A stretch of DNA of 24,000 nucleotides from NCBI GenBank assembly GCA_029203615.1, contig CP091280.1, positions 160,697 through 184,696 on the forward strand, given 5' to 3'. Below the pieces are notes generated by a model. That model had not been told where the DNA came from and did not search any database. It saw only the letters and a list, made by a program, of their open reading frames with translations. Source of the stretch: Mycoplasma sp. (GTDB taxonomy: Bacteria; Bacillota_I; Bacilli_A; Mycoplasmatales; Mycoplasmoidaceae). Position numbers and translations under genes: made by a program. Of the stretch, positions 2 through 21,786 are shown in pieces (the stretch's first letter is position 1; every line of letters begins with the position of its first letter).

Positions 2-2575
2 AGAAAAAAAGATAAAGAACCTAAAGTAAATCAACCGCAACCAAACGAACCAACAGAAGTTACCGAAGTTGAAGCAGCTGTTGTTGAAACTACTCCTGGA
101 TCTGTAACCATTAACTTAATTGCTTCTGATATTAATCTTGATGATTTTAAAAAAGAAACTCAAGAAACAGTTAAACCTGTTCATGAACGCATTGAAAAAC
201 TTGAAAAACAAGAATCATCTAAACAACAAGTTGAAGCTAAACAAACAAAAACTAAACCAGTTAAAGTTAAAAAACTAAAACCACGTAAGAAAAAGATTGA
301 TATTGTTAAGCTTGTTAAAACAAGAATTGAAAAATATAGCAATATCTTTGAATTACGAGTTGCTAAATTAATTGAACGTCATAAAAAAGAAGTTAAATTA
401 ATTCATACTTGATTACCTAATACCAAGAAAAAACTAGATAAGAAACTAGCTGAATTAATAAAAAACTACGAAAAACAAGTTGAATTAATTAAAAAACAAG
501 AAACAAATGTTGAATTACGTAAAAATAAACTAGCAAATTTACAAAAACATTACGAATTCAACAAACATAACACATTATTTGTTTTTGAGCAACGCTTAAA
601 ATTCATTAGTGAATTAACCCAAAAACGTATTGAAAAAGCTAACCGTAAATTACAAATTGGTTTATTTAAGGTTAAAGAAAAATTCTTAGTATTTATCTTC
701 AATCAAGACCAAATCCTAAAAAACTTAGAATTTAAAAAAGAAACTTTAGCTTTCAATAAAAAAGTTCTAGCCATTGTTCATAAGTTTAAAAGATCAAGTC
801 ATAAAACGCCAAACACAGTTTTAACTAAAGAACTTAATAAGGATAAACTAGTTAATCAAACCTTTAATAAGATTAACTTAAAGATTAAAGAAGATAAACT
901 TAAAGCTAAACAAAAAGCACTAGCCCAACAAAAAGCCTTATTAAAAAATCAACCTAAGTCTAAAGATAAACCACTTAGTGCCTATCAAGCAAATAAAACT
1001 CCTTATGCTGTAGAAATGCATCATATTTCTAAATCATTCCATAAAGGTCAATTATTAGCTTTAGATGATGTAACACTAAAAGTAGCTAAAAACGAAATCC
1101 ATGCGATTGTTGGTGAAAATGGGGCCGGAAAAACTACTTTAATGTCAATTTTATTTGGCCAAATTCCAGCTGATGAAGGAAAAGTGTATGTTAATGGGCA
1201 ATTATCAAAAATTAAAACCCCAGATGATGCGACTAAAAATGGGATTGGAATGGTGCACCAACACTTTAAATTAGTCAATGTTTATTCGTTACTAGATAAC
1301 ATTATTCTTGGTGCTGAAAAAACTAAAAATGGTTTTATTGATCGAGCTGCAGCGATTGAAAAAATTAACAAAATTACTAAAGCATATAACTTAAAACTAA
1401 ATTTAGATACTAAAGTACGTTATGCTTCAGTTGGTGAACAACAAACAACAGAAATTGTTAAACTGCTATATCGTGATGCTGATATCTTAATTTTTGATGA
1501 ACCTACCGCAGTATTAAGTGATATTGAAATTGCTGGATTCTTAAAAATGTTAAAAGAATTTAAGCGTTTAGGTAAAACTGTAATTTTAATTACACATAAA
1601 CTAAATGAAGTTGAAGCCGTAGCTGATAAAGTTACTGTGATTCGTAAAGGTTGTGTAGTTGATACTGTGGTAATGAAGAAAACTAACCAAAATAAATTAG
1701 CGAATATGATGGTTGGTGAAAAACTAGTATTAAGTAAAAATAACGTTCGTGATTTAAAATACAGTACGCGTCCAGTAGCATGCAATATTGAAAACTTATA
1801 TGCGAATAAAATTTCGCAACCAAAAGTTTTAGCCCTAAAAGGCTTAAACTTAAAGATTCATGCTGGAGAAATTGTCGGATTAGCAGGAATTGAAGGTAAT
1901 GGACAAACCGAATTAGCTTTAATTATTGGTGGATTATTAAAAAATAAAGTTCGTGGTAAAGTTGAAATTTATAACGAATTAACTAATGTTAAATTAGATG
2001 CACTTAAAACTTCAACTGATAAACTATACCGCCATGGTTTAACACATGTTCCCGAAGATAGATTAAAATATGGTTTAGTTTTAGATGAAACAGTAGCAAT
2101 TAACACTGTTTTACCAAGAATTAATGAAGACCCTTTTACTGTTTTAGGAATGCTTAACCATAAAGCAATTAATGGTTATACTAAAAACTTATTATTCCAA
2201 TGAGATGTTCGAGGTGCTAATAATGGTAAAGCTTTAGCAAGAAGTTTAAGTGGGGGAAACCAACAAAAATTAGTTATTGGAAGAGAAATCTCTCGTCCAC
2301 ATTGTTTCTCAATTTATGTTCAACCAACTAGAGGACTAGATTTAGGAGCAATTCAAAACGTTCATAAACAAATTATGGAAGACGCCAAAAAAGGAGTTGG
2401 GGTATTATTAATTTCTTACGAATTAGATGAAATCTTAGCGATCTCTTCACGAATTGCTGTTATTAATGATGGAAAAATTACTTTCCATGCTTTAAGACAT
2501 AAAACTAACCGTCAAGAAATTGGCCGTCATTTAGGATCGAATATGAAGAGTGTTAGTAAGAAAGGAAGTAAATAA
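2..2575 (+). CDS. ABC transporter ATP-binding protein with two fused ABC domains (CUT2 / BMP-lipoprotein-associated sugar-nucleoside type), 5'-partial, long N-terminal extension
   Basis: Frame 2 is open from the window edge to TAA 2573-2575 when TGA 410-412 and 2201-2203 are read as Trp. Motifs: Walker A GENGAGKTT (~nt 1112), Walker B ILIFDEPT, second-domain GIEGNGQTEL, signature LSGGNQQK. ABC homology begins ~nt 1005 (YAVEMHHISKSF). Nt 2-1004 encode a K/E-rich non-ABC region, and there is no stop and no ATG/GTG/TTG in frame between 413 and 1015. Confidence 0.9.
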
Positions 2576-5884: not shown

Positions 5885-5893
5885 TGTTAAAAT
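5885..5893 (+). promoter_or_regulatory. Extended -10 promoter element (TGtTAAAAT) for the large LRR protein gene
   Basis: TGTTAAAAT at 5885-5893 lies 20 nt upstream of ATG 5914 and just downstream of the operon terminator. No clear -35 was found, which is usual in Mollicutes. Confidence 0.45.
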
Positions 5894-5913: not shown

Positions 5914-8900
5914 ATGAAATTCAAATTATTAACTGGGTTATTAATTGCTCCAGTTGTTGTTCCGTTAGGAATAAGTTTTTCTAATCATTCTAGTCAAAAT
6001 CAAAATGTTGTTTTAAGCGATAAAAAAACAACTAATGATGTTTTGTGAAGCATTACTGATGATGGTACGATTTCACCAATTGATAAAAAAGTTTTTTCAG
6101 GATTAGTAACTATACCAGAAGCTTTTGATGGTATTACTGTTAAAAAAATTGATAATAGTGCTTTTTTTAATAACGATAAAATAACAGGTGTAATAATTCC
6201 AGACACTGTTACAACAATCGGAAATGCAGCGTTTCAACAAACAGGTCTAGAAAGTGTAACCATTCCAGATAGTGTTACAGAAATTGGTTCTGGAGCTTTT
6301 TATTGATGCGGAAGTTTAAGTTCAATTAATATTCCTTCCCAAACTACAAAAATTGGAAATGATGCCTTTTTTGCAGTTCCATTTACTAATATCACTTTAG
6401 ACTCAAATAACCAAACATTTGAATGAAGGGGTACAGAAAATAATGGTTATATTGTTAGAAAAGACGCAGAAGATAAGTATGCTTGCCCAACTAGATTAGC
6501 CGTTGGAAGAATTGATTTAACGGGAGCAACAATAATTCATAATGAAGCATTTTCGTTTTGTCGTGGTATAACAATGTTTTATGGAATGGAAAATATAACA
6601 GAAATACAATACGAAGCTTTTAGGTTTTGTACTGGTTTAAATTCCTTTACCATTCCAAAAAAAACTAAAACACTTGGTGAAGGATGTTTACAACAACTTA
6701 GTACAATAGGCAAAATTATTTTTGAAAACGATGACATAAATTCAATTAATTTTGCTCCTAGACATGTTTTTTGAAGAACAAGTCCAAGGAAAATCCAAAT
6801 AAACGCCGGAATTAATTATCTCGATAACGAACAACAAACTCTTTTATTTAATACTTTTATAAATAAATTAAATTCTATTGGTTTTGAAACAACAATTGAT
6901 CAATATACAACTTGATATGATAATTCAACTACATCGCCTTCTGGGTATTTTTATGTTTTTAATCTTAATACACAAGCAACTACAACTATTGGATCTGGAT
7001 TTAAAGCATGAAGAGATGAAAAATCAGATACTAGAACTGTAGCTCTAGAATACACAACTAGTGATAATAATATTAATGTAACTGGGACAATTGATGATAA
7101 TTTATCAATAATAAATACCACAATAACTGGCAATGTTCCTAATATATATGGTAAGCATGTAACCTTTACTCCAAGATTGCATCTAAGAGATAGTTCTAAC
7201 AATTTTGATAAAACTGTGGGTTTAGAATCAGGAATTATTCGTTTAAAAGCAAATATTAACATCACAACTAATGATCCAGTATTCCATGAAGATAACCGTA
7301 TAAATGTTAGTCGTGATAATGGTTTATGATTTGGTAATGATTTTTATATAACAAATACACAAATTAACAAAGCTTATTTTGGTGAACATTGAAATGATAA
7401 AGAATATATTAAAAATAATTTATCTACATACTTTAAATTTACTAATAATTCTGGTACTGAATTATCATTAATTAAAAATAATAATTATTGATTTAATAAT
7501 CAATTAGGAGTAATACTTATTAACATTAATACAAAAAATTTTACAACTTATACTGTTACTTTTGCTATTGCAAAAGGTAATGGCAATGATATTGCTACCC
7601 TTATTGATCAAAATATTAATTGTTATTTAAAGCCTTGAGCTAAAAATAAACCAATATTTAGTATTCAAACATATAGTGCTAATAAATTTAAACCAAACCG
7701 AACATTTAGTGACAATGGAAGCAATGTTAACTTATCTCTAAACAATCAGACCCAAAGAACAACTTGAAATTTAGATAACCAAACAATTGATTCGCAAATT
7801 GCTAAAAACGATTTTGATTGATATCAAAGACAAGGTTATTCATTTAGACTTGATGCAAGTAGTTTTAATAATCAATTCATTGGTATCGGTGATGATTTGA
7901 CTCTAAATGATGATAAAACCCAATTTAGTGTTAGTGTTAACTTAAGAACGCCAAATATTAATGCAGTTAATGTAAATGTTAGTGGGTTAAAAGTAATTGC
8001 TTATAAATCAGGAGTAGCTAATGTTGAGTTTAACTTACCAACATTTAATGTTAATGCATCTAACAACGATAACCACAGCATTAACAAAAACCATCTTAAC
8101 AAATCTACCGAGATTTCTAATACTCGAGACGGTTTATGAATTAATGGTGATACATATGATACAAGAGTAGTTGTTAACAAAGCTTATTTTGGTCAAAACT
8201 GAAATAATCCTAATTACATTAAAAATAACTTTAATCAATATATTAATGTTAGTGGTAATGGTGAAACTTATCAATTTAATCACGCCGATAACACTAATGT
8301 TTACACTAACCCTAAAATTGGTCAAATGAATGTAACAGGAGTTGACCAAGATACTGATCCAAATAGTTATTTAATTAAATTATGATTTAGTGTTCCTGAT
8401 AGTGTTGACTACCAATTATTAGATCAAACTATCACTTTTGATTTAAAGAATGCTCCTAGTGGTTCAGATCATTTATTTACTATTAATACTTGTGATAAAA
8501 ATCAGTTTGATCCAAACTACAATAACTTTAGAGCTAATAACATTAACTTAACTAGTGGACAACGAAGTGGAACAATTGTTTGAAATGATAGTGATCAAAC
8601 TCAATTTAAAAACTTAGGTAATACGAATACATGTAAGTGAGCAATTAGTAAGGGATATACTTTATCAGTTGAAGGATTTAGTGATCAATATATTATGCTT
8701 GACTCTAATGCAACATTTGATGTTAACTCAAATACATTACAAGTTGGAGTTACCCAAGCTAAATTTGTAACCCAAGAAACTAGTGTTAATGTTTCTGGTT
8801 TAAAACTAAATATTATGAATGGAAGTACTGTAGTTAGACAAGATATTACTTTACCTAATTTAACAATTACTTTGGGTGCAGCAAGTACTGATATTACAAC

Positions 8901-9411
8901 CACAAATCTAACTTATACAAGTGTAGATCAAAAATCTTTACGTGATAAAGGCGATACTGCTAGTTTTGATTTAACCATTCCTGAAGTATTAAAACCAGAA
9001 AATGATGCACAATTAATTAACAAATTCAACTTTGCTTATAAAGGTGAAGGTCAATCTACTTGAACTTGAAAGCCAGTGCCTTCTGAAACCGGAATTTATA
9101 AATTCCAATATCAACATGATGATGAAACTTACACTTTAACTTATCAACTAGTAACTAATTTACAAAGCGATATTAACCCAAGATATACTTATCACATTAC
9201 TCTAACTCAAGAATTTGATGGTAAAGTGAAGAAAGATATTGAATTTAGTTTTGTTGGTGCAAGTAGTAGTAATCCATTTGAAATTAACGCTGACGAATGA
9301 CAACCAACACTTAATTTAGGTGCAATTTTAGGTGGAGTGTTTGGTGCAATTGTCTTAATTGGATTAATTGCCTTAACCGTTGTTTTAATTAAAAGAAGAA
9401 AGAATAAATAA
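5914..9411 (+). CDS. Large surface protein (1165 aa): signal peptide, BspA-like leucine-rich repeats, two ~270-aa Asn-rich tandem modules, C-terminal TM anchor
   Basis: Frame 1 runs from ATG 5914 to TAA 9409-9411. All 1165 codons were checked: many TGA, no TAA/TAG. N-terminus [28 protein letters not shown]_5/BspA-type units such as [47 protein letters not shown] fall at ~nt 6090-6780. C-terminus [27 protein letters not shown]. Confidence 0.9.
7309..8934 (+). repeat. Intragenic tandem duplication, two diverged ~813-nt (~271-aa) modules
   Basis: An exact 18-mer, aacaaagcttattttggt, occurs at 7366-7383 and 8176-8193. Protein landmarks recur 813 nt apart: RDNGLW (7312) and RDGLW (8125), NKAYFG..WN...YIKNN, then VNVSGLK (7972 and 8785). 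Boundaries are approximate. Confidence 0.8.
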
Positions 9412-9430
9412 TAGATTATTTTTAATAAAG

Positions 9431-9497
9431 AAAAGTGGATTCCCATTTGTTACCTCCTAGATATTTTTCTGGTGTATACAGGGTGTCCACTTTTTTT
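9431..9497 (+). terminator. Long imperfect hairpin plus T7, putative terminator of the large LRR gene
   Basis: AAAGTGGA (9432-9439) pairs with TCCACTTT (9486-9493). The stem extends through CCC (9442-9444) / GGG (9481-9483) and is followed by more T up to 9497. The loop is large (~35-45 nt), so it is atypical. Confidence 0.35.
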
Positions 9498-9527
9498 GTC
9501 CGTGTTTATTTTTCAAAAAAAGTATGC

Positions 9528-9546
9528 TTTTTTTTTTTTTTTTTTT
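9528..9546 (+). repeat. Poly(T)19 homopolymer in the promoter region of the small LRR protein gene
   Basis: Counted directly: T at 9528-9530, 9531-9540 and 9541-9546. It ends 7 nt upstream of TACAAT (9554-9559). Confidence 0.95.
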
Positions 9547-9553
9547 GGCTGGA

Positions 9554-9559
9554 TACAAT
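9554..9559 (+). promoter_or_regulatory. -10-like hexamer TACAAT for the small LRR protein gene (near-leaderless transcript implied)
   Basis: TACAAT lies 8 nt upstream of ATG 9568. There is no SD sequence between them and no convincing -35 at a 16-18 nt spacing, because that position falls inside the T tract. Confidence 0.4.
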
Positions 9560-9567
9560 GAAACTAT

Positions 9568-10335
9568 ATGAAGTTAAAATTTTTATCAAAATTTTTATGT
9601 GGACTAGGTTTAGTTAGTACTTTAGTTCCTTTAGGTATTAATACTAGTAATCATGTTTTATTAAGTAGTGATGCTAAAAATGAGGAAGAGGTGTTGGCGA
9701 ATCTTAAATTTGAAGATTTATCAAGAGAAGGGTTCTGCGCAGTTGTTGGTTGTACTAATAAAGATACTGCAACAAAAATTATTATTCCATGAAAAAACAC
9801 AGAAAACAAGATTGTTTTTCAACTTGCACGTGACGCTTTTAATGGTTGTCCTCTAGTTAAAACAGTTGAATTTGAACAAGGATCAAATCTTGCCATTTAT
9901 ACTAATTGCTTTGCAAATTGTCCTAATTTAAAAACAATTATTGCGCATGATTGTATTCGTTATATCAATCCTAAAGGTATTACGAACTGTCCTAATCTAA
10001 CTAGAATTTATATGTCTTACTCAAATTCATATTTTGAATTACATGATGGATATTATCCAGACACCAGCAATTACATGTTTTATGAATCTAACAATATAAC
10101 AATTTACTATAAAACATGAGATTGAGATAATGAAAATGTTTTATTAAATAATTATGTTGAAAGATTTCAAAAAAAAGCAGGCTGTGAATTTGTACGTTTT
10201 AAAAAAGATGCTCCAATTGAAAAAGACAATTTAGGTCCTGTCTTAGGTGGTGTGTTTGGTGGAATTGCTACTGGTTGACTAACAGCCGGTGGAATTGTTT
10301 TCTATAAAAGAAAAAACAACAAGAAGAATAAATAA
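9568..10335 (+). CDS. Small surface protein (255 aa): signal peptide, Cys-containing BspA-like LRR region, C-terminal TM anchor; paralog of 5914..9411 at both termini
   Basis: Frame 1 runs from ATG 9568 to TAA 10333-10335 with 4 in-frame TGA and no TAA/TAG. N-terminus MKLKFLSKFLCGLGLVSTLVPLGINTSNH (compare [11 protein letters not shown] in the large protein). Repeats of the type AFNGCPLVKTVEF / CFANCPNLKTII / ITNCPNLTRIYM. C-terminus NLGPVLGGVFGGIATGWLTAGGIVFYKRKNNKKNK. Confidence 0.85.
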
Positions 10336-10366
10336 AAAAAAAGGCACCATGTGATTGGTGCTTTTT
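10334..10366. terminator. Bidirectional rho-independent terminator between convergent genes
   Basis: A9 (10334-10342), then G-GCACCA (10343-10349), loop tgtgat, TGGTGC (10356-10361), then TTTTT (10362-10366). It serves the + strand LRR gene and, via the A tract, the - strand ftsZ. The ftsZ stop (10365-10367) overlaps the T tract. Confidence 0.75.
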
Positions 10367-11747
10367 AATTTTCAACTTTTGGTTTTTTAAATCCTGGTTT
10401 AATTGCTTTAGTTAATAAATCAGTATAAGATTGTGAATCTAGTTTAACGGTATGATGAACAGTATCGCTTTTATTTTCTTCTTCTAATGACTCTTCGTTT
10501 AAATAACTACTAGTTTTTAAACCACTAAAGATTTGTTTATCCTTATTAACTTCTTTTTGTTCTTGGTGGTTATGATTAATAAATTTGTTTAATTCATCAT
10601 TATTTACAAAAACACGTTGACGGGCTTTTTGATAATCATTAAATTCTTCTTCGTTATAACCATTTAATACTTGATCATCAGCAATATTAGATGCGACTAA
10701 GATATCAACAATGATTTGGTCATCAATAGTATTTTCATCAATCCCGTTAGTTAATCATAATTCATTGTTTTGGGTTAATTGATTAAAAACTGTTTTAATA
10801 TCAGTAATAATGTTTCTGGTTGTATTAATTGGTAATTTCACATTTGCTAAAACATTATTAGCATCAGTTAAAGGAACGTTACAATAACTATTTTTAATTG
10901 TTGAACTGATAATCTTAAAGAGATTATCATAGTTATAGTTTTCACTATTAATCTTAAAGCTTAAAGGCATAAAGACTTTAGCATTAGTAAAGAAATTTCT
11001 CACATCCGCAAAATCAATATTAACTTGGGTAGGATGATTAATTGTTTCACAAATCATCGAAACTAAATTACCCACTTCTTGATTTGCTCTTTTAAAAGCA
11101 CCAAATAAAGTTAATTCATCATGAGCAACTTGAATAATCTTGTCATTACTAATTGAACAATAAGAATTACTGTTAGCAACAATTTCTTTAAAGTTATTAA
11201 TACTATTTCGATAAACTTTTTGTCCTTCAGCTTGAATACTTGGTAAATTGACGATCGAAATAGTGGTAATGCCCATATTTTTTGCTAATTTAGCAATTTC
11301 TGGAGTTGCCCCACTTCCTGTTCCTTTACCTAATCCGGCAATTAGAATTAATAAATCAGTATCTTTAATAATTTCCCCAATAGTAGCTAAATCATCAATG
11401 GCTGCACTTTTTCCAACACGAGGATCACCACCACTTCCAGCTCCTCTTAATGTTTTTTTACCTAATAAAAAACAATTACAACAACCTTGTAATTTTCTTA
11501 AAGCGCCAACATCGGTATTAAAAGCATAAAGTTTGACATTATCTTGTAATTTAATGTTTTGGTTAATGTGATTAATCACATTACATCCCGCCCCACCAAT
11601 ACCAATCACTTTAATTTTGATTAAACCAAAGTTATCGTCTAAATCATCTAAATTAGAAATAAATTCACTAGTTGGTTTTTTCTCTAGTTGATTATCATTT
11701 GGTTTAATCTCTTCATGATTGATAATTTGATCTAAGACATTAGCCAT
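10365..11747 (-). CDS. ftsZ: Cell division protein FtsZ (460 aa) with long acidic C-terminal tail
   Basis: ATG at 11745-11747 is preceded by AAGGAGAA. Motifs VIGIGGAGCNVINH and GLGKGTGSGATPEIA. The track ORF ends at TGA 10755-10757. Reading it as Trp extends the frame 130 codons to TAA (10365-10367), with no in-frame TAA/TAG (checked). The tail ends in IKPGFKKPKVEN. Confidence 0.9.
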
Positions 11748-11750
11748 AAA

Positions 11751-12773
11751 TTATTCTCCTTGACCAAGTTTGGCACTAATTTGGGTACTGATAATTCCAA
11801 ACTTCATCAGTAAATTCTTTTGGATATTACGTGAAGTAATTTCTTCAGCAATAAAAGCATCAATACTACAAATGTTTTCTAAGTTAGCATTTTTACGTTC
11901 AATGATACTAGCTTTTAGACAATTAATTAATGTATTAGTGTATTCATTTTCTAAGCCAAACACATTAGTTTTAACTAAGTTAATGTTTTGTTCATTAACA
12001 CTAACGCCATGATTTTCAAAAATTACATCAAATACTGCTTGAAATTCATTTTCACAGTTACAATAAATGTTTTTATTAGCATAAGGAGTTAATTCGTTAG
12101 CTAAACTATTAAAAAACGTTTTAAATCATTTTTGGACTAATAAAATAAAGTCTTTCACTTTAATTTGTTGTAGTGATAAAAATTGGTTAGGGAAATAATT
12201 AAACAATGATAAATCTTCATCTAAAGTTTTTAAGTGTTTAAAATTAATAAAGCAGTTTTTAAAAGCTTCAAAAGCATTAGCAAATTTAAATTGGTTATTA
12301 ACTAATTGTTTAAAGTAGTTAATGCCTAATTCAGTTTTCTTGGTATTAACTAATTGATTTTGGTCGTTATATTCATTGATTACACTATAGTCATCTTTAA
12401 TATCGATTAAAATATGGTTGGTATCAACATAACTAAAGGATTTAGCCATTGATTGTAAACCGATTTTCTTAATGCCTAATAAGTTAGTTAGTTCATCAAT
12501 CTTTTGCTCAATTGCTAAATCAGTATGATCAACGATAAAGATATAACGTTTAACCATAATGCCCATTAACATATCGACTTGAACTAATTCGTTATTAAGT
12601 GTTTTGGCTAATTCGCTAACACTAAATTCTTGGTCTATTGTTAAGTTATTAGTATTAATAACTTTATGGTATAGACAGTGTTGAAGATTAGTGTTTTCGT
12701 TTTGCAACACTGCTAATATAATTTGGTTATTTTGTAATTGGATTAATCCGTAAACTGATTTTAAGTGATACAT
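11751..12773 (-). CDS. Hypothetical protein in the ftsA position of the dcw cluster (possible highly degenerate FtsA-like protein, 340 aa)
   Basis: Track ORFs 12126..12773 and 11751..11963 are in the same frame, joined through TGA 12126-12128 with no TAA/TAG between them (checked). The gene is packed 5 nt after rsmH and 3 nt before ftsZ. Weak FtsA-like patterns (YGLIQL..., ILIDIKDDYSVI) lack the canonical Gly-rich phosphate loops. Confidence 0.6.
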
Positions 12774-12778
12774 AATGT

Positions 12779-13714
12779 CTAGACCTTTCTAATGCCCCGT
12801 AGTTTAGCACTACGACTACGATGATTGTTGTTTATTTCGTTTTGACTTGGTAATATTGGTTTTTTATTTGTTAGTTGATAGTTAATTTGTTCTTTAATAG
12901 GTATTTCAATTGGCAAAGCAGAAGTAATAAAAGAATTAAAAGTTTGTTTAACAATCCGGTCTTCTAAAGAGTGATAACTAATGACACTTAATACTCCGTT
13001 TGGTTTTAAGGAATTAATCGCTTGAATTAAAAAATATTTTAAAACATTTAATTCATTATTAACTTCAATTCTTATCGCTTGAAAGATAACTCGAGCTGGA
13101 TGCTTATGCTTATTAAGTTCTTTATTTGGTAAACAACTTTTAATGATCTCAACAAGTTCTAAAGTTGTTTCAATTAATTTAGTTTGTCTAGCATTAACAA
13201 TAGCATTAGCAATTGTCTTAGCATAGTGGCATTCGCCGTATTCACTGAAGATGTCTTGTAGTTGTTTAAATGAATAGTAATTAACAACTTGAAAAGCATC
13301 TAGTTCTTGATTAGTATCCATTCGCATATCAAGCTTAGCTTCAGTATGGTAACTAAAACCACGACTAGCATTATCTAGCATTGGACTACTTACACCTAGA
13401 TCAGCAATAACTCCATCCACTTGCTTAATGTTTAATTCACTTAGTACACGCGCGTAATGCGAAAAATTAGCTTTAATAATAGTGACATTATTAGCATTAG
13501 CAAATTTTGATTTTAAAGCGTTAATAGCTACTTCATCTTGATCTAAACAAATTAGTTTCCCTTGATTAGATAATTGGTTTAAAATTAATTGGCTATGACC
13601 ACCAAAACCAGCGGTAGCATCCACATATACTCCGTCTGGTTTAATGTTTAATAAAGCAATTGATTCACTAGCTAATACACTAGTATGCAAATTATTAAAT
13701 TGGTTTTTCATCAT
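12779..13714 (-). CDS. rsmH: 16S rRNA (cytosine1402-N4)-methyltransferase RsmH/MraW
   Basis: Motifs DATAGFGGHS, DLGVSSPMLD, SYHSLEDRIVK. Stop is TAG at 12779-12781. The start is taken at the ATG ATG pair (13709-13714), giving MMKNQFNNLHTSVL; an upstream ATG at 13736-13738 is possible. Either start overlaps the mraZ 3' end. Confidence 0.9.
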   Translation of the reverse strand: MMKNQFNNLHTSVLASESIALLNIKPDGVYVDATAGFGGHSQLILNQLSNQGKLICLDQDEVAINALKSKFANANNVTIIKANFSHYARVLSELNIKQVDGVIADLGVSSPMLDNASRGFSYHTEAKLDMRMDTNQELDAFQVVNYYSFKQLQDIFSEYGECHYAKTIANAIVNARQTKLIETTLELVEIIKSCLPNKELNKHKHPARVIFQAIRIEVNNELNVLKYFLIQAINSLKPNGVLSVISYHSLEDRIVKQTFNSFITSALPIEIPIKEQINYQLTNKKPILPSQNEINNNHRSRSAKLRGIRKV

Positions 13715-14129
13715 CAATGTTTTGTGCAATATCAGCATAAATTTGATCAGTTGATTCTTTAAATGATTGATATGCTTTTTTATCCCAAATTTCTAATTTG
13801 TTACCAACTCCAATAATGACTACTTCATCTTTAATGTTGGATTCAGCTAATAAGTTTTGTGGAATTAAGATTCGATTAGCTTTATCTAACTTTAAATCAA
13901 TGGCATTCGCTAATAATTGACGCACTAAGATCCGGCTTTCACGCTTATTAGCTGAATAATTCATTAATTGGGCACTATAGTTTTCAAAAGCAGTAAATGT
14001 TCTTAGTTCTAAACAACCTTCAAAACCCTTAGACAAAACAACATCAGCCGATAGTTTACTAACAATCTTAGTTGGTAAATTTAATCGGTTTTTTGCGTCT
14101 AATTTGTGATAGAAGGTACCTAAAAACAT
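13695..14129 (-). CDS. mraZ: Transcriptional regulator MraZ (144 aa)
   Basis: MFLGTFYHKLDAKNRLNLP... is the typical MraZ N-terminus, and the protein has the duplicated SpoVT/AbrB-like halves. ATG 14127-14129 is preceded by a GGGAGAAAGTGG SD-like sequence. The track start at 14159 (MCIEVGESGN) is an upstream in-frame ATG inside the operator and is not favoured. Confidence 0.9.
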   Translation of the reverse strand: MFLGTFYHKLDAKNRLNLPTKIVSKLSADVVLSKGFEGCLELRTFTAFENYSAQLMNYSANKRESRILVRQLLANAIDLKLDKANRILIPQNLLAESNIKDEVVIIGVGNKLEIWDKKAYQSFKESTDQIYADIAQNIDDEKPI

Positions 14130-14133
14130 ATTA

Positions 14134-14160
14134 CCACTTTCTCCCACTTCGATACACATT
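14134..14160 (-). promoter_or_regulatory. MraZ operator: three direct heptamer repeats with 10-nt phasing
   Basis: The minus strand reads AATGTGT-atc-GAAGTGG-gag-AAAGTGG-taat-ATG. On the plus strand these are ACACATT 14154-14160, CCACTTC 14144-14150 and CCACTTT 14134-14140. This matches the published Mollicutes MraZ box AAAGTG[T/G] with 3-nt spacers. Confidence 0.7.
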
Positions 14161-14163
14161 ATA
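14158..14163 (-). promoter_or_regulatory. -10 box TATAAT of the dcw (mraZ) promoter
   Basis: Plus-strand ATTATA at 14158-14163 is TATAAT on the minus strand. It lies 28 nt upstream of the mraZ ATG and overlaps the distal MraZ repeat. Confidence 0.5.
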
Positions 14164-14214
14164 TAAGTTTTTTTGGCTTTTTAATAAAAAAACTAAAAAT
14201 TTACCTCATAAGAT

Positions 14215-14249
14215 AAAAGAAAAAAACTTGCTAACATTTTCTAGCAAGT
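14215..14249 (-). terminator. Rho-independent terminator after the small TM-protein gene / pepA unit
   Basis: The minus strand reads ACTTGCTA-gaaaatgt-TAGCAAGT followed by a T run (6 T after the stem) then CTTTT. Stem arms on the plus strand are 14226-14233 and 14242-14249. Confidence 0.75.
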
Positions 14250-14274
14250 CTTCTTAAGCTTTAAAACTGATTAA

Positions 14275-14460
14275 TTATTTAACTAAAACAAGAACAAGAA
14301 TCGTAGTAATTACCATTACAACTGCCAAAACACTTAAAGCACTTAAAACGATAATTCGTTTAACTTTTAAGGTTTTTAATTGTTGCGGAGTTAAAGCAAT
14401 ATTTTGGTTTGTTAATGGTTTTTCTTCATTAACTGGTTTTTGTTTTTTCTTAAATAACAT
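14275..14460 (-). CDS. Small single-pass membrane protein (61 aa), hypothetical
   Basis: ATG 14458-14460 lies 9 nt after the pepA stop. The protein has a Lys-rich N-terminus (MLFKKKQKPVNEEKP) and one clean TM helix (IIVLSALSVLAVVMVITTILVLVLV). A strong terminator follows. No homology was recognised. Confidence 0.5.
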   Translation of the reverse strand: MLFKKKQKPVNEEKPLTNQNIALTPQQLKTLKVKRIIVLSALSVLAVVMVITTILVLVLVK

Positions 14461-14469
14461 ATTATTTAA

Positions 14470-15849
14470 TTATTTCTTTTTATTGCTATGAACGTTATTT
14501 ACAAAATCAATAAAAGTTCTTAGCATGGTTGGGAATGGTTTTAATACACCATTAATCATTCGTTCATTAGTAAAAGCAATATCAAAATGCATGTATGGTT
14601 TATCTTCACTAAAGAAATGTAAGAATTCAGCAGCGGCTGCACTTCCAGCTTTAGTATCCATATGGAAGTTAGCAAAATCAGCAATTAATGTTTTATTGAT
14701 CATGCCATTGGCATATTCTTGATGTAATGGCATACGTCAAATGTATTCTCCAGCTTCAGTTGCTGCTTGTTCAATATTATTAGCGCATAAATTACATGTT
14801 GATCAATATCCAGTCATCACATTACCTAAAGCAATTCCAATTGCTCCAGTTAAAGTAGCGATTGTAGCTAATGAATGAGTTTTTAAATCACGAATAGCAT
14901 AAGTCATGGCATCAGCTAATATTAATCGACCTTCTGCATCAGTATTAGTAATTTCGACTGTTTGACCGTTATATGAACGATATACATCATTCATGCGGTA
15001 AGCATCTGGACCAATGTCATTATTACTTAAAGCTAAAACAACAGCAAAGTTAGCTTTTTTGTTTAATTTACATAACGCTAGCATGATTCCAGCACTAATT
15101 GCCGCTCCAGACATGTCCATATGCATCTTGTACATGTTGCCATTAATTTTTAAATTAAGTCCACCAGTATCATAAGTAATTCCTTTACCAACTAAAGTAA
15201 AGCTTGGTTTAGTATTTTTAAAGCAAATACTCATCATCATTGGTTTAAATTCTTTGTTTGAACCTCTTCCTACTGCCGTAATTAAACCCATGCCTTTTTT
15301 AACCATTTGTTCATAATTCAATGTTTTGATATCAACCATTGTTTTATAAGGCATAAAAGCTTTATTAACACGTTTAGCAAATTCGTTTGGAGAAAGAACA
15401 TTGTTGGGTTCAAGCATTAAGCTACGCGCAAAATTAGCTCCTTCAATAATAGCCTCAATTTCTTTTTGGTTTTGTTTTCATAACTTTGCTTCTAAAATAA
15501 AGTTATGTTTTAAACTCTTACATCCTTTAGTTTTATAACATACAGGCATGAAGTTAATGACTTCATGATTAAAAAAGGCATTAATAATAAATGGTTTAAC
15601 TAGTTCTTTAGGTAATAAACTAATAAAACTATCTAAATCAATATTAGCTTCAAACTTTAAACTAGTAATTGCTTTATTCAAGTTTCAATCTAATGATTTG
15701 GGACAAAGATCTTTTTTATCAATCACAAAATAAGTGATATGACCTTCATTAAAAAAACTATAAGGTTTTTTATCTTTAGCTAACTTATCTGTTAGACTAA
15801 GTGCTTTTAAAGTAATTGGATTTTTTTGTTTTAAATTAACGTTGAACAT
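14470..15849 (-). CDS. pepA: Leucyl (cytosol) aminopeptidase, M17 family (459 aa)
   Basis: Track ORFs 14470..14733, 14803..15417 and 15478..15681 are in one frame, joined through TGA codons with no TAA/TAG in the gaps (checked). Motifs VGKGITYDTGGLNLK and NTDAEGRLILADA. The first ATG after the upstream stop (15877-15879) is 15847-15849. Confidence 0.9.
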
Positions 15850-16637: not shown

Positions 16638-17675
16638 TCATCCAAAAGGACCCATAATCATTTTGTAATTAACATAAATGATTAAAAATCCAAAGACTAA
16701 ACCAGTTAAACCTAAAGCTAAAAAGTCACGATAAGAAACCGAATAATTGCGATAACTTGTTCTTATTGCTCTAGGTGAATAATTTCTCGCTTCCATCGCA
16801 TTCGATAAATCATCAGCTTTATGGAATGCCACACTAAACATCGGCACAATTAAAGATACTAGTGATTTAATCCGGTCTTTAAAATTACCATTTTTAAAAT
16901 CAACTCCACGCGAAGCTTGAGCTTTTAAAATGTTTTGGCTTTCAGTTAATAATGAAGGTACAAACCGAATGGCAATCGAAATAATCATCGCTCATTCATT
17001 AACCGGAATTTTAAATAACTTTAATGGTGATAATAAATCTTCAATTGCACCAGTTAATTGAATTTCACTAGTGGTTGAAACTAAAATGGTTACCACCATA
17101 ATCATTAACATAATCTTAAACGAAACGTTAAAAGTGTTAAAAACAACTAAACTAGATAGCGTATATCAAGAAGATTGATAAGCAAGATAATATGTAATTC
17201 CATCAATTGATCTAGTGATATATTTATTAAATAAATCAGTTGGTAATGGTTTATTTAATTTTAATCCATATGGGTCAATAACTCCCCCCCATAAATCACC
17301 AAAGATATAGGTATAGTGGTGTTGACCAACATCAATTTCTTTCAAGTTAAAAATATTGCGGTTAAAATAACCAATAAAACTATATCTGTCAATATCTATT
17401 ACTAAGGCTGGGGATTTATAAACTAGTCAATTAATGACAAACAATAATACCAGCATAATTGCCCAAGCAATGAGAATTGATTTAAATAATTTTCACCCTA
17501 ATTTAGCAACTAACCAAATAATACTTAAAGCGACAAATAAGAATAATTGACCAAAAAAACCTAATGGTAAGAAAATTACCACAATTAAAAAGATCGTTGT
17601 TACCAATTTCACTAATGGATTTAATTGGTGTCAAAATGATTTACGATTAACATATTTATCAAATGTGTTTTTCAT
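16638..17675 (-). CDS. ecfT: ECF transporter transmembrane (T) component EcfT (345 aa)
   Basis: ATG 17673-17675 is preceded by AAGGAG. All codons from 16986 to 17675 were checked: many TGA, no TAA/TAG. The C-terminal part carries the EcfT motif region (ILKAQASRGVDF), and the N-terminal part has multiple TM segments. Confidence 0.85.
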
Positions 17676-17678
17676 AAG

Positions 17679-18611
17679 CTAAATCATCTCCTTAATCGCA
17701 TTAGCTAGTTCTTCAATGTTTCTTGGTTTAGCGTCATATAGTTTTTTAAACTTTTCGTTTTTTTCAACTAGTTTATCAATCGTTTGAATCACTTTTGGTT
17801 TAATTAAACTAGTTTTACTCATGATGTTTTCGTTAGTAAATATGTTATAAGGTGTATCATAACCTAAAACAGCGTTTTCACCTAAAACAATGACTTGATC
17901 AGCTAATCTTAAAACTGCATCCATTTCATGGGTAATGACAAAAACAGTTTTATTTTGTGTTTTTAATTCCTTAATGATTGCTAGCATTTCTTCAATTCCA
18001 ACTGGGTCTAATCCTGCGGTTGGTTCATCAAAAACAACAATATTAGGTTCAATTGCTAAAATTCCCGCAATGGCTACTCTTCTTTTTTGTCCACCTGATA
18101 AGTTAAATGGAGAACGTGAAAATAACTCTTCACTAATCCCTAATTTCTTTAGATATTTTTTACCTAATTCTTGGGCAATAAGTTTTTTAACTCCTAAATT
18201 AATTGGCCCAAACATCACGTCTTTTAAAACGGTGTCTTTAAATAATTGGTATTCCGGGAATTGGAAAACCATACCCACTGATTTACGTAATTTTTTAAAT
18301 TGAGGAATTGTTCTTTTTTGCCCAATAATCTTGGAATTTTCAACAAAGATATTCCCGTATTTAGAGCGAATTAAACCATTAAAATGGTTAATTAAAGTCG
18401 TTTTTCCACTACCAGAATCACCAACAATAAAATAAATTTGGTTTTTAGGAAATTCAATACTTAAGGGGTTTAAAACTAGAACTTCTTCATCGCTATTTTC
18501 ATTGAAAATAATTTTTAATTGATCAATCTTAATGGCTAAATTATCAGCTAATTGGAATGACTTAGCTTGTTTTTTATCCATTGGTAATTGATTACTACTA
18601 GTTATTTGCAT
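17679..18611 (-). CDS. ecfA2: ECF transporter ATPase component EcfA2
   Basis: Walker A GDSGSGKTT, signature LSGGQKRRVAIAG, Walker B VVFDEPTAGLD. It overlaps the ecfA1 3' end by 10 nt. Stop is TAG at 17679-17681. Confidence 0.9.
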   Translation of the reverse strand: MQITSSNQLPMDKKQAKSFQLADNLAIKIDQLKIIFNENSDEEVLVLNPLSIEFPKNQIYFIVGDSGSGKTTLINHFNGLIRSKYGNIFVENSKIIGQKRTIPQFKKLRKSVGMVFQFPEYQLFKDTVLKDVMFGPINLGVKKLIAQELGKKYLKKLGISEELFSRSPFNLSGGQKRRVAIAGILAIEPNIVVFDEPTAGLDPVGIEEMLAIIKELKTQNKTVFVITHEMDAVLRLADQVIVLGENAVLGYDTPYNIFTNENIMSKTSLIKPKVIQTIDKLVEKNEKFKKLYDAKPRNIEELANAIKEMI

Positions 18612-19459
18612 AAGTTGTTTATATTTTCAATGACTTGATCAATTTCTAATGAAAGGTTAACTCTTTCATCCTTTGCTTTTAAGTTTTTACTTAACTCTAA
18701 AGCAAACGGCAGATTTAATTTATTGTTAGCTAGAAATTCTTCGTTTTCAAATACGGTTTTAGGTTCATCTAATTTTTGCAGTGTTCCATTCTTAATCACC
18801 ATAACTAAATCAGCATTAAGCATCTCTTCCATGTTATGGGTAATTGAAATAATGGTTTTATGGTATTTTTGTCGCAAAGTAACCATTAATTCCATCAGTT
18901 CAGTCTTAGCTGTTGGATCAAGCATTGATGTACTTTCATCAAAAATAATGACTTTTGGATTTAAAGCTAAAACACTAGCAATTGCTACTCGTTGTTTTTG
19001 TCCACCCGAAAGTCTTCCAGCATTTAAACCTAATAGATGTTTCACATTAACGATACTAGAAGCGTTTTCAATAATTGCATACATCATCGTTGGATTAATC
19101 TTATGGTTTTCTAACCCAAAAGCAATATCGTCTTCAGCTGTTAAACCAATAAATTGGTTATCGGGGTTTTGAAAAACAATCCCAATATCATTACGAATAC
19201 TTTTAACTGTATAGTTATCCAAAACAGTATTAAAAATTTGGATTTGTCCACTTCATGGTTTTAATAAACCAACTAGTAATTTACTAATAGTTGATTTCCC
19301 ACTACCATTACCACCAACAATACAAATGTATTTGCCGGTGGGAATTTCAAAGCTAATTTTGTTAATGGTTGGAACATTCATTCCTTGTTCATAACCAAAA
19401 ACAACGTCTTTAAAACGTACAGCAATTGGAACATTTTTTTCTGTTGATGGACTTGACAT
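18602..19459 (-). CDS. ecfA1: ECF transporter ATPase component EcfA1
   Basis: Track ORFs 19253..19459 and 18602..19222 are in the same frame, joined through TGA 19253-19255 (LLKPWSGQIQIF). Walker A GGNGSGKST, then IGIVFQNPDNQF, signature LSGGQKQRVAIAS, Walker B IIFDESTSMLD. Confidence 0.9.
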
Positions 19460-19506
19460 AATCTAACAGTTAAAATAATTATAATTTATATAAATAAAAA
19501 TTATCT

Positions 19507-21784: not shown

Positions 21785-21786
21785 TT

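What the first reader, a model, noticed from the sequence alone, without database searches (positions are those of the whole stretch)
9528..9546. T19 homopolymer abutting the -10 box of a surface LRR protein gene: candidate phase-variation switch
An uninterrupted run of 19 T lies in the 156-nt gap between the two LRR surface-protein genes. It ends 7 nt upstream of a TACAAT hexamer (9554-9559), which is only 8 nt from ATG 9568, so the transcript would be near-leaderless. It is the longest homopolymer I saw in the 24 kb and is flanked by T7 (9491-9497) and A7 (9515-9521). In Mollicutes, slippage-prone tracts in promoters of surface-protein genes are an established ON/OFF mechanism: poly(A) in the -35/-10 spacer of M. 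hyorhinis vlp genes, TA repeats for M. mycoides Vmm, and GAA repeats upstream of M. gallisepticum vlhA. Here the position 17 nt upstream of the -10 falls inside the tract and I see no convincing -35. Whether the tract acts as a spacer, an UP-element or curvature element, or a weak A7/T-run hairpin is therefore unresolved.
Basis: partly seen in the sequence, partly recalled or inferred. Interest (0 to 1): 0.7.

Follow-up and report, generated by a model that had tools for sequence, protein, structure and literature searches.

The report
Long T-run in surface-protein gene promoter
A run of 19 T's fills the upstream half of the promoter of a small surface-protein gene in an uncultured pigeon mycoplasma; it is probably a slippage-prone expression switch of a kind already known in mycoplasmas, but nobody has yet shown that its length or the gene's expression varies.

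Summary
Extrapolating the window's A/T run-length distribution predicts about 2e-5 runs of 19 or more; the next longest run is A9.

The window uses genetic code 4. It matches, at 100% identity, contigs from run SRR17641486, the pigeon-crop metagenome behind the 'Candidatus Malacoplasma/Mycoplasma trichamica' genome.

A strong terminator (9428-9497) closes the upstream BspA-like gene, so the 255-aa gene needs its own promoter. TACAAT is the only credible -10 in the 70 nt available. This puts the tract at about -38 to -20 of a leaderless promoter with no -35.

Tract-length variation could not be tested: no second copy of the locus and no reads were reachable.

- **For a switch:** poly(T) promoter tracts in M. 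arthritidis maa2 and M. bovoculi vpb; repeat-driven phase variation of BspA-like genes in the sister species.
- **Against:** a T tract next to the -10 of the M. agalactiae vpma promoter does not switch.

Verdict: a new, unproven member of a known kind, of moderate interest.

The parts
5914..9411 (+). Upstream BspA-like LRR surface protein gene (g4, 1165 aa, code 4). It ends in TAA followed by TAG and has no homopolymer tract in its own upstream region.
   Evidence: Code-4 ORF. Pfam LRR_5 E 1.9e-31. Two paralogues in the same genome, 60% and 46% identical. Its upstream region carries TGtTAAAAT at 5885-5893 and no run longer than T6.
9428..9497 (+). Intrinsic terminator of g4: a long hairpin with an A-rich 5' flank and a T7 tail (9491-9497).
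   Evidence: RNA fold -27.8 kcal/mol; shuffles average -12.7; z -5.9; 0 of 200 shuffles fold as well. It is also the dominant structure in the fold of the whole gap.
9515..9521 (+). A7 run, 6 nt (GTATGC) upstream of the T tract. It could pair with the first T's, but only weakly.
   Evidence: Sequence. Folds give -7.7 kcal/mol, z -1.2 as RNA and -5.1 kcal/mol, z -1.2 as DNA. A similar A6 + 3-4 nt + T17/T20 arrangement occurs in two other Mycoplasma loci, L027 and L018.
9528..9546 (+). T19 homopolymer, at about -38 to -20 relative to the predicted transcription start. It is the candidate slippage tract.
   Evidence: Expected number of runs of 19 or more in the window is 1.7e-5 by extrapolation.
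9547..9553 (+). GGCTGGA, the 7-nt stretch between the tract and the -10. It does not form a TGn extended -10.
   Evidence: Sequence, compared with the TRTGn/-16 element described in PMC3325076.
9554..9559 (+). TACAAT, the predicted -10 hexamer of g5.
   Evidence: It is the only hexamer in 9498-9567 with T1, A2, A4, A5 and T6. TACAAT is a mapped -10 variant in M. hyopneumoniae. The two-hexamer scan finds no promoter here because there is no -35.
9565..9568 (+). Predicted transcription start zone, giving a leaderless or 1-3-nt-leader mRNA. There is no Shine-Dalgarno sequence.
   Evidence: Inferred from the 5-8 nt distance between -10 and start site in mapped mycoplasma promoters (PMC3325076). 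Not mapped here.
9568..10335 (+). g5: a 255-aa BspA-like LRR protein with an N-terminal signal or transmembrane segment and a C-terminal transmembrane anchor followed by a Lys-rich tail.
   Evidence: Code-4 ORF. Pfam LRR_5, 32.6 bits against a cut-off of 27.7. Its N- and C-termini align with those of g4 from residue 1-3 onward. It has no homologue other than itself among 5.8 billion proteins.
10334..10366 (.). Bidirectional terminator shared by g5 and the convergent ftsZ: A9, hairpin GCACCATGTGATTGGTGC (10344-10361), then T5.
   Evidence: Terminator scan and sequence.

Best explanation
T19 is a hypermutable poly(dT) tract that forms the whole upstream half (about -38 to -20) of the promoter of g5. 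That promoter has no -35 and yields a leaderless mRNA. g5 is a small BspA-like surface protein of 'Ca. M. trichamica'.

**Shown**
- The tract exists and its length is far from chance.
- g4 ends in a strong terminator, so g5 must be transcribed from the 70 nt that contain the tract.
- TACAAT is the only -10-like hexamer in that interval, and it sits 8 nt from the ATG.
- g5 belongs to a surface multigene family.

**Inferred**
- Mollicutes lack mismatch repair, so a 19-nt homopolymer will gain and lose bases by slipped-strand mispairing at high frequency. The population is therefore a mixture of tract lengths.
- The -10 has neither a TGn extension nor a -35. The T tract therefore probably supplies the upstream contacts or DNA geometry, acting as a T-rich surrogate for the -35 and a proximal UP-like element. 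It would also set the helical phase of the A7 and flanking DNA relative to the -10.
- Length changes are then expected to raise or lower g5 transcription. A homopolymer covering the -35 position looks the same after a one-base shift, so I expect graded or multi-step modulation more than a one-step ON/OFF switch.
For: - Tract and coordinates. Statistics.
- Terminator 9428-9497, z -5.9.
- Unique -10 and leaderless geometry, consistent with mapped mycoplasma promoters.
- g5 is LRR_5 with a signal segment and anchor, and is paralogous at both termini to g4. Further paralogues exist in the same genome.
- Literature precedents: maa2, vlp and vmm switch by indels in the promoter (PMC2268961). Five M. 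bovoculi vpb surface-protein genes are each preceded by a promoter with a T tract (PMC3931370).
- Sister species Ca. M. girerdii: 13 of 20 dinucleotide repeats and 2 homopolymers vary in metagenomic reads, affecting 8 BspA-like genes (PMC5476646).
- A scan of 185,579 species genomes for T16+ / TANAAT / ATGAAR gave only 45 loci. Nine of them are named Mollicutes. All 5 Mollicute cases with a real downstream ORF encode exported or membrane proteins, with the -10 placed 6-9 nt from the ATG: L005, L019, L027, L028, L037.
Against: - No tract-length polymorphism was seen, because no second copy of the locus and no reads were reachable.
- There is no -35 hexamer, so the best-understood mechanism, spacer length, does not apply.
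- The adjacent paralogue g4 has no tract.
- The M. agalactiae vpma promoter has a T tract immediately upstream of its -10, yet phase-locked mutants never lost expression (PMC2268961).
- The genome-wide pattern scan did not return Ca. M. girerdii. Either its representative genome has no tract of 16 or more T's in this arrangement, or it is absent from that collection; I did not check which.
- The ATGAAR term in that scan favours Met-Lys starts, which are typical of signal peptides, so the link with exported proteins is partly built in.
Confidence: 0.5

Rival explanations
1. Static promoter and insulator element. The T tract is just the T-rich upstream part of an AT-rich -10-only promoter, and perhaps also a back-up stop for read-through from g4. 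Its length may drift, but this has no meaningful effect on g5 expression, as with the T tract of the M. agalactiae vpma promoter.
For: - The vpma counter-example (PMC2268961).
- A homopolymer that covers the -35 position is unchanged by small shifts.
- Low-GC mycoplasma promoters work with a -10 plus AT-rich upstream DNA (PMC3325076).
- In several low-GC 'Bacilli' MAGs, T16-T20 tracts are simply terminator tails that abut the next gene's -10: L013, L020, L030, L035.
- g4 has no tract.
Against: - An uninterrupted 19-mer is about 5 orders of magnitude beyond the local run-length distribution. It would be eroded without selection or very recent expansion.
- The real terminator lies 30 nt upstream with its own T7 tail.
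- The hairpin next to T19 is insignificant.
- The surface-gene context and the lineage's record of repeat-driven switching also argue against a neutral tract.
Confidence: 0.33
2. Assembly or sequencing artefact. The tract is real but much shorter, or its length is an artefact of consensus building at a low-complexity site.
For: The genome is a metaSPAdes assembly of 2x150 Illumina reads from a PCR-based library, and one ~100-bp gap was filled by Sanger sequencing at an unstated position. Homopolymers stutter in such data.
Against: - Coverage was 2,500-5,000x, and 150-nt reads span 19 nt easily.
- Independent Logan contigs of the same run are 100% identical to the window where they overlap.
- There are no N's and no junction signature around the tract.
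- Similar T16-T20 tracts occur in finished Mycoplasma genomes.
Confidence: 0.05
3. The tract acts on RNA rather than on promoter geometry. Either transcription starts inside the T run from the weak TATGCT hexamer (9523-9528), giving UTP-sensitive reiterative transcription, or the U19 stretch is a second terminator or pause for g4 read-through.
For: TATGCT matches T1, A2, T3 and T6 of the consensus and sits just before the tract. The minimum-energy fold pairs A7 with the first U's.
Against: - TATGCT lacks the two A's that do not vary in mapped mycoplasma -10 boxes (my reading).
- The hairpin is no better than shuffles (z -1.2).
- The strong terminator upstream should leave little read-through.
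Confidence: 0.05
4. Coding-region frameshift switch. g5 really starts upstream at an in-frame GTG (9502) or TTG (9496), so the tract encodes Phe6 and ±1 slippage throws the gene out of frame, as with M. hominis Vaa.
For: The g5 reading frame is open from 9415 through the tract, read as GCT TTT x6. In-frame GTG and TTG codons lie upstream of the tract.
Against: - The signal peptides of g4 and g5 align from Met1 at 9568.
- The alternative starts lie at or just after the terminator tail, with no room for a promoter and no Shine-Dalgarno sequence.
- A 51-codon open stretch has roughly a 4% chance in this composition (my estimate), which is not compelling.
Confidence: 0.03

Closest known systems
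Mycoplasma arthritidis maa2 poly(T) promoter tract (Washburn et al. 1998, as cited in PMC2268961)
   Same: A homopolymeric T tract on the coding strand in the promoter of a variable surface-protein gene. Indels in the promoter turn transcription on or off.
   Different: maa2 is described as varying the spacer between a -35 and a -10, and there is no -35 here. MAA2 is a repeat-containing lipoprotein of a Hominis-group species, not a BspA-like LRR protein. I could not read the primary paper, so tract length and distances could not be compared.
Mycoplasma hyorhinis vlp genes, poly(A) tract between -35 and -10 (Yogev 1991; Citti & Wise 1995, as cited)
   Same: A homopolymer inside the core promoter of surface-protein genes of a multigene family, with slipped-strand mispairing as the mutational engine.
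   Different: The vlp tract is a true spacer between two recognisable hexamers, and every vlp gene carries it. Here the tract replaces the -35 region, and only one of the two family members in view has it.
Mycoplasma bovoculi vpbA-E contingency locus (PMC3931370)
   Same: Paralogous surface-protein genes preceded by putative promoters that contain a homopolymeric T tract. As here, the case is predicted from sequence only.
   Different: All five vpb genes carry the tract and lie in one array. Here g4 lacks it, and the other paralogues could not be inspected.
Mycoplasma agalactiae vpma promoter T tract (PMC2268961)
   Same: A T tract immediately upstream of the -10 of a surface-lipoprotein promoter. 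Positionally this is the closest match.
   Different: It was shown not to produce ON/OFF variation in phase-locked mutants, where switching is by Xer1-mediated inversion. It is the model for the static rival explanation.
'Ca. Mycoplasma girerdii' BspA-like genes with length-variable simple repeats (PMC5476646)
   Same: The sister lineage and the same protein family: BspA-like, mostly with a C-terminal transmembrane anchor (PMC4206474). Repeat-length heterogeneity was demonstrated in metagenomic reads.
   Different: There the repeats are mostly dinucleotide repeats inside ORFs that act by frameshift. This window has no dinucleotide repeat of 5 or more units, and the tract here lies upstream of the ORF.
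Mycoplasma gallisepticum vlhA GAA repeats upstream of the promoter (PMC6258824)
   Same: A repeat outside the -35/-10 spacer whose length governs transcription of a surface-protein family in a Pneumoniae-group mycoplasma.
   Different: It is a trinucleotide repeat about 40 nt upstream, not a homopolymer that abuts the -10.

Membership tests
Repeat-driven promoter phase-variation switch of Mollicutes (vlp / maa2 / vpb type) | An uninterrupted simple repeat long enough to slip and far beyond compositional expectation | tested here: met
   T19. The expected number of A/T runs of 19 or more in the window is 1.7e-5, and the next longest run is A9.
Repeat-driven promoter phase-variation switch of Mollicutes (vlp / maa2 / vpb type) | The tract lies inside the core promoter of a gene that has its own promoter | tested here: met
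   A strong terminator at 9428-9497 isolates g5. The tract ends 7 nt before the only -10-like hexamer, which is 8 nt from the ATG. The transcription start itself is predicted, not mapped.
Repeat-driven promoter phase-variation switch of Mollicutes (vlp / maa2 / vpb type) | The tract forms the spacer between recognisable -35 and -10 hexamers, so that its length sets the spacing | tested here: not met
   The -35 position (9531-9536) is TTTTTT. The sequence before the tract (GTATGC) matches TTGACA at 1 of 6 positions and would sit 26 nt from the -10. The two-hexamer scan finds nothing here.
Repeat-driven promoter phase-variation switch of Mollicutes (vlp / maa2 / vpb type) | The downstream gene encodes a surface-exposed protein of a multigene family | tested here: met
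   LRR_5 match, N-terminal signal segment and C-terminal anchor. The termini are shared with g4. Two more paralogues exist in the genome.
Repeat-driven promoter phase-variation switch of Mollicutes (vlp / maa2 / vpb type) | Other family members carry the same kind of tract | tested here: inconclusive
   g4 has none. The loci of paralogues P0003 and P0004 could not be fetched.
Repeat-driven promoter phase-variation switch of Mollicutes (vlp / maa2 / vpb type) | Tract length differs within a population or between strains | not testable with these tools
   No reads were available and no second copy was found. g5 occurs once among 5.8 billion proteins, and the metagenome and genome scans were empty. 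Logan contigs of the source run stop at 10285 and do not reach the tract.
Repeat-driven promoter phase-variation switch of Mollicutes (vlp / maa2 / vpb type) | Expression of the gene correlates with tract length | not testable with these tools
   This needs clones, reporters or paired DNA and RNA read data.
Intrinsic (rho-independent) terminator tail | A stable G+C-containing hairpin directly followed by the T run | tested here: not met
   The only hairpin next to T19 is A7:U7, at -7.7 kcal/mol and z -1.2. The true terminator is 9428-9497 with its own T7 tail.
UP element (binding site for the RNA polymerase alpha subunit C-terminal domain) | An A/T-rich element at about -40 to -60 | tested here: not met
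   The tract spans about -38 to -20 relative to the predicted start, so it overlaps only the proximal edge of the UP region. Its function was not tested.
Coding-region homopolymer frameshift switch (Vaa / P78 type) | The tract lies downstream of the start codon, inside the ORF | tested here: not met
   Homology with the g4 signal peptide begins at the ATG at 9568, and the tract is upstream of it. The open upstream frame has no promoter room.

The most novel reading that the evidence does not exclude
The T tract is not a spacer. It is the entire upstream half of a leaderless promoter that has no -35, and it works as a length-dependent dial for a BspA-like protein. If BspA-like proteins mediate recognition between the mycoplasma and its Trichomonas partner, as PMC10557491 hypothesises, slippage at this tract would create subpopulations of the symbiont that differ in attachment to the protist or the bird. 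That would be a promoter-homopolymer mode of variation alongside the in-ORF dinucleotide repeats seen in the sister species.
Probability: 0.2. Interest if true: 0.55.

Novelty: new member of a known kind. Interest (0 to 1): 0.4.

Why it matters
BspA-like proteins are the expanded surface family of the Trichomonas-associated mycoplasmas 'Ca. M. girerdii' and 'Ca. M. trichamica'. They are the leading candidates for symbiont-protist-host recognition (PMC10557491, PMC4206474).

Neither the paper describing this genome nor the first girerdii genome paper mentions homopolymers or phase variation (0 occurrences). If the tract switches or tunes g5, it would extend the repeat-driven variation documented in the human-associated sister species to the avian species. 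It would also add a promoter-level mechanism.

It can be tested at once with public data. The source run has 2,500-5,000x coverage of this genome, and metatranscriptomes exist.

More generally, the locus is a clean example of a question that is still open for mycoplasma promoters: what a long T tract next to a -10 does when there is no -35. One such tract switches (maa2) and another does not (vpma).

Tried and rejected
**Fetching the rest of the source genome or a second strain**
- Exact-protein look-ups for g5, P0003 and P0004 found nothing.
- The genome-contig scan with the g4-family alignment matched 97 stretches, but none was a relative.
- The metagenome scan with the 28-nt flank of the tract gave 0 hits.

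**Logan contigs of the source run**
- They were reached through GpmI, RsmH and MraZ. They cover window 18486-21981 and 10285-15670 only.
- The contig holding the tract could not be addressed, because g5 is cut by the contig end.

**Synteny in a relative**
- Loci of the 69%-identical GpmI (L047-L051) have different upstream neighbours and no LRR genes. They served only as background for run lengths.

**Searches that returned nothing useful**
- Rfam gave no match in the window.
- Pfam gave no hit on the five comparator proteins. The LRR-like look of the L027 protein is therefore unconfirmed and I do not rely on it.
- Washburn 1998, Flitman-Tene 2003 and van der Woude 2004 are not held, so maa2 and vpma details come second-hand from PMC2268961.

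**Ideas considered and rejected**
- T19 as a terminator tail: the adjacent hairpin is insignificant.
- T19 as a UP element in the strict sense: it is in the wrong position.
- A coding frameshift through an extended ORF: there is no promoter room, and signal-peptide homology starts at 9568.
- A contraction that creates a -35: no tract length brings a TTGACA-like hexamer to 17-nt spacing.

Full report
**What is there**

The window uses genetic code 4. With TGA read as Trp, the fragmented code-11 ORFs merge into long genes:
- an ABC sugar-transporter operon;
- two LRR genes, g4 (5914-9411, 1165 aa) and g5 (9568-10335, 255 aa);
- a convergent ftsZ-rsmH-mraZ block, followed by pepA, truA, ecfT/A/A, gpmI and others.

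The finding's coordinates are all correct:
- T19 at 9528-9546;
- T7 at 9491-9497 and A7 at 9515-9521;
- GGCTGGA (7 nt) between the tract and TACAAT at 9554-9559;
- GAAACTAT (8 nt) between TACAAT and ATG 9568;
- a 156-nt intergenic gap.

T19 is the longest homopolymer by ten bases. A/T run counts fall about 3.2-fold per extra base. Extrapolation predicts 1.7e-5 runs of 19 or more in the window, and a first-order Markov model predicts 5e-4 to 1e-3. About 21 kb from a related mycoplasma contains no A/T run of 9 or more.

**Where the window comes from**

- g5 and g4 each match one NCBI entry, 'MAG... [Mycoplasma sp.]', on a 656,646-bp contig.
- Two Logan contigs from run SRR17641486 are 100% identical to window 18486-21981 and 10285-15670.
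- PMC10557491 lists SRR17641486 as the Beijing pigeon-crop metagenome behind the ~657-kb, 28.8% GC circular genome of 'Candidatus Malacoplasma (Mycoplasma) trichamica'. This organism is a Trichomonas gallinae-associated sister of 'Ca. M. girerdii'.
- Sequencing was Illumina 2x150 with a PCR-based library, assembled with metaSPAdes at 2,500-5,000x coverage.
- GpmI identities fit this placement: 67% to a Malacoplasma MAG, 57% to M. testudinis and 56% to M. pirum.

The tract is therefore a short-read consensus. It is surely real, but its exact length may be off by a base or two.

**The genes**

- Both g4 and g5 pass the Pfam gathering score for LRR_5, the BspA type.
- They share an N-terminal signal segment (…VPLGI-x-x-SNH) and a C-terminal transmembrane anchor with a Lys-rich tail.
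- g4 has two more paralogues elsewhere in the genome, at 60% and 46% identity. One of them has an identical signal peptide.
- This is the BspA-like family described for Ca. M. girerdii: 26-28 members of 136-1481 aa, 23 with a C-terminal transmembrane domain (PMC4206474; PMC5476646).
- g5 has no detectable homologue outside its own genome.

**Anatomy of the gap**

Seventeen nucleotides after the TAA-TAG stops of g4 lies a long hairpin, 9428-9497. It folds at -27.8 kcal/mol against -12.7 ± 2.6 for shuffles (z -5.9) and ends in T7. This is an intrinsic terminator. g5 is closed by a bidirectional terminator shared with ftsZ. g5 must therefore be transcribed from 9498-9567.

In that interval TACAAT is the only hexamer with the T1/A2/A4/A5/T6 pattern. 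Other promoters in the window are also -10-only: TATAAT or TAAAAT sits 13-20 nt before pepA, ecfA and gpmI, and TGtTAAAAT sits before g4.

Mapped M. hyopneumoniae promoters have the -10 placed 5-8 nt from the start site and no -35. They show AT-rich upstream periodicity and frequent leaderless mRNAs, and TACAAT is one of the observed variants (PMC3325076). Applied here, transcription would start at 9565-9568, the mRNA would be leaderless with no Shine-Dalgarno sequence, and the tract would span about -38 to -20.

**What the tract is not**

- *Not a terminator tail.* The only adjacent hairpin, A7:U7, gives -7.7 kcal/mol with z -1.2 as RNA and -5.1 kcal/mol with z -1.2 as DNA.
- *Not a vlp-type spacer.* The -35 position is TTTTTT. 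The sequence before the tract matches TTGACA at one position and would sit 26 nt from the -10. No contraction brings a -35-like hexamer into register.
- *Not a classical UP element.* It lies too close to the -10.
- *Not coding.* The g5 frame is open back to 9415, the tract would read GCT TTT x6, and in-frame GTG and TTG codons exist. However, signal-peptide homology with g4 starts at the ATG at 9568, and there is no room for a promoter upstream.

**Comparative evidence**

I could not obtain a second copy of the locus or any reads. As a substitute I scanned one genome for each of 185,579 species for T16+, 3-11 nt, TANAAT, 4-16 nt, ATGAAR.
- Only 45 loci matched.
- Nine carry Mollicute names, and several more are low-GC 'Bacilli' MAGs.
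- In most hits the ATG opens no real ORF.
- About eleven have an ORF of 90 aa or more, and five of these are Mollicutes:

| Locus | Organism | Tract | Downstream product |
|---|---|---|---|
| L005 | Mesomycoplasma moatsii | T16 | 1042-aa protein with signal peptide and C-terminal anchor |
| L027 | Mycoplasma sp. CSL7503-lung | T17 | 551-aa secreted protein |
| L028 | M. procyoni | T16 | lipoprotein |
| L037 | Mycoplasma sp. 6243 | T18, 1 nt from TAAAAT | lipoprotein |
| L019 | Mesoplasma seiffertii | T16 | polytopic membrane protein |

In all five the -10 lies 6-9 nt from the ATG. The arrangement of a long T tract, a -10 and a leaderless start of an exported protein therefore recurs in Mollicutes. 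The ATGAAR term does bias the scan toward signal peptides.

In the 'Bacilli' MAGs (L013, L020, L030, L035) the tract doubles as a terminator tail upstream of paralogous membrane-protein genes, and its length differs between paralogues.

**Literature**

- PMC2268961 states that promoter indels switch vlp, maa2 and vmm.
- The same paper notes that the M. agalactiae vpma promoter has a T tract immediately upstream of its -10. This tract plays no role in variation, because phase-locked mutants never turned off.
- PMC3931370 predicts phase variation for five M. bovoculi vpb genes from T tracts in their promoters.
- PMC5476646 shows from metagenomic reads that in Ca. M. girerdii 13 of 20 dinucleotide repeats and two homopolymers vary in length within one population. 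Eight BspA-like genes are affected, mostly by in-ORF frameshifts.
- This window has no dinucleotide repeat of 5 or more units.
- The genome paper for this organism does not mention homopolymers or phase variation.

**Mechanism I commit to (confidence 0.5)**

Shown:
- the tract, its improbability and its position;
- the isolation of g5 by a terminator;
- the surface-family context.

Inferred:
- From established knowledge that Mollicutes lack MutS/MutL (recalled, not tested here), a T19 run will slip frequently. The population should therefore hold a mixture of lengths.
- The -10 lacks both TGn and a -35, so the tract probably supplies the upstream promoter contacts or geometry, and its length should modulate transcription.
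- Because a homopolymer looks the same after a one-base shift, I expect graded or multi-step changes rather than a clean one-base ON/OFF switch.

**Rivals**

- The main rival (0.33) is a static T-rich promoter or insulator element, as in vpma.
- Minor rivals are a consensus-length artefact (0.05), RNA-level roles of the U tract (0.05) and a coding frameshift (0.03).

**Verdict**

The locus works like the maa2 and vpb poly(T) promoters but fails the spacer criterion of the vlp type, and variability is untested. It is a new, unproven member of a known kind, in a lineage and protein family where repeat-driven variation is already documented by another route. Interest is moderate (0.4), mainly because public reads at several-thousand-fold coverage could settle the question quickly.

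Noticed in passing
window 10169-10176 (in g5) and 6657-6664 (in g4): Each LRR gene contains an A8 run in its coding region. A ±1 change truncates g5 at 211-221 aa, which removes the C-terminal membrane anchor. It truncates g4 at 251-264 aa, leaving the LRR domain only. These are possible frameshift sites of the M. hominis Vaa kind.
   Followed up: partly
window 9409-9570: g4 and g5 lie in the same reading frame. After the TAA-TAG double stop of g4, the frame stays open for 51 codons, through the terminator and the T tract, up to the g5 ATG. This is probably chance (about 4% by my estimate) but was not explained.
   Followed up: partly
whole window; loci L046 and L052: The window is 100% identical to Logan contigs from SRR17641486. 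It therefore comes from the published 'Ca. Malacoplasma/Mycoplasma trichamica' genome from a Trichomonas gallinae-infected pigeon (PMC10557491). Logan contigs end at window 10285, 15670, 18486 and 21981, and the cause of these breaks is unknown.
   Followed up: partly
protein P0003 (paralogue of g4 elsewhere in the genome): This paralogue, 60% identical to g4, ends at '...QNDDQLIIN', just before the segment that carries the C-terminal anchor in g4 and P0004. It may be a truncated or frameshifted family member. Its DNA could not be fetched.
   Followed up: no
L027 1630-1690 and L018 7790-7860: Two Mycoplasma sp. CSL genomes share a motif directly before their T17 and T20 tracts (ttttaaaaaaTCG / aaaaaaCTCG). 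This resembles the A7-GTATGC-T19 arrangement here: an A run, a short loop, then a long T tract ahead of a -10. It may be a recurring promoter cassette.
   Followed up: no
L013 2898-2917 and 3973-3988; L020, L030, L035: In low-GC 'uncultured Bacilli' MAGs, nearly identical modules of a terminator hairpin, a T16-T20 tract and a -10 precede paralogous membrane-protein genes. Tract length differs between the copies.
   Followed up: no
L005 1040-4168 (Mesomycoplasma moatsii): The 1042-aa protein downstream of a T16 promoter tract ends in a transmembrane anchor plus '...IKSKKNKKNN', much like the C-termini of g4 and g5. It has no Pfam hit. The tract lies in a 107-nt divergent gap facing a putative lipoprotein gene.
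   Followed up: no
window 13695-14159: The longest mraZ ORF starts at an ATG that overlaps a TATAAT. The Logan gene call (144 aa) and the conserved MFLGTF N-terminus indicate the real start is 10 codons downstream, so that TATAAT is probably the promoter of the cell-division (dcw) gene cluster.
   Followed up: partly
window 2-1015: The reading frame of the ABC ATPase gene (first ATG at 1016) is open back to the window edge. The open stretch encodes a long Lys-rich, low-complexity extension, so the gene may start upstream of the window.
   Followed up: no
window 17284-17290: A C7 run (G7 on the coding strand) lies inside the ecfT gene. It is the only G/C homopolymer of 6 or more in the window.
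   Followed up: no
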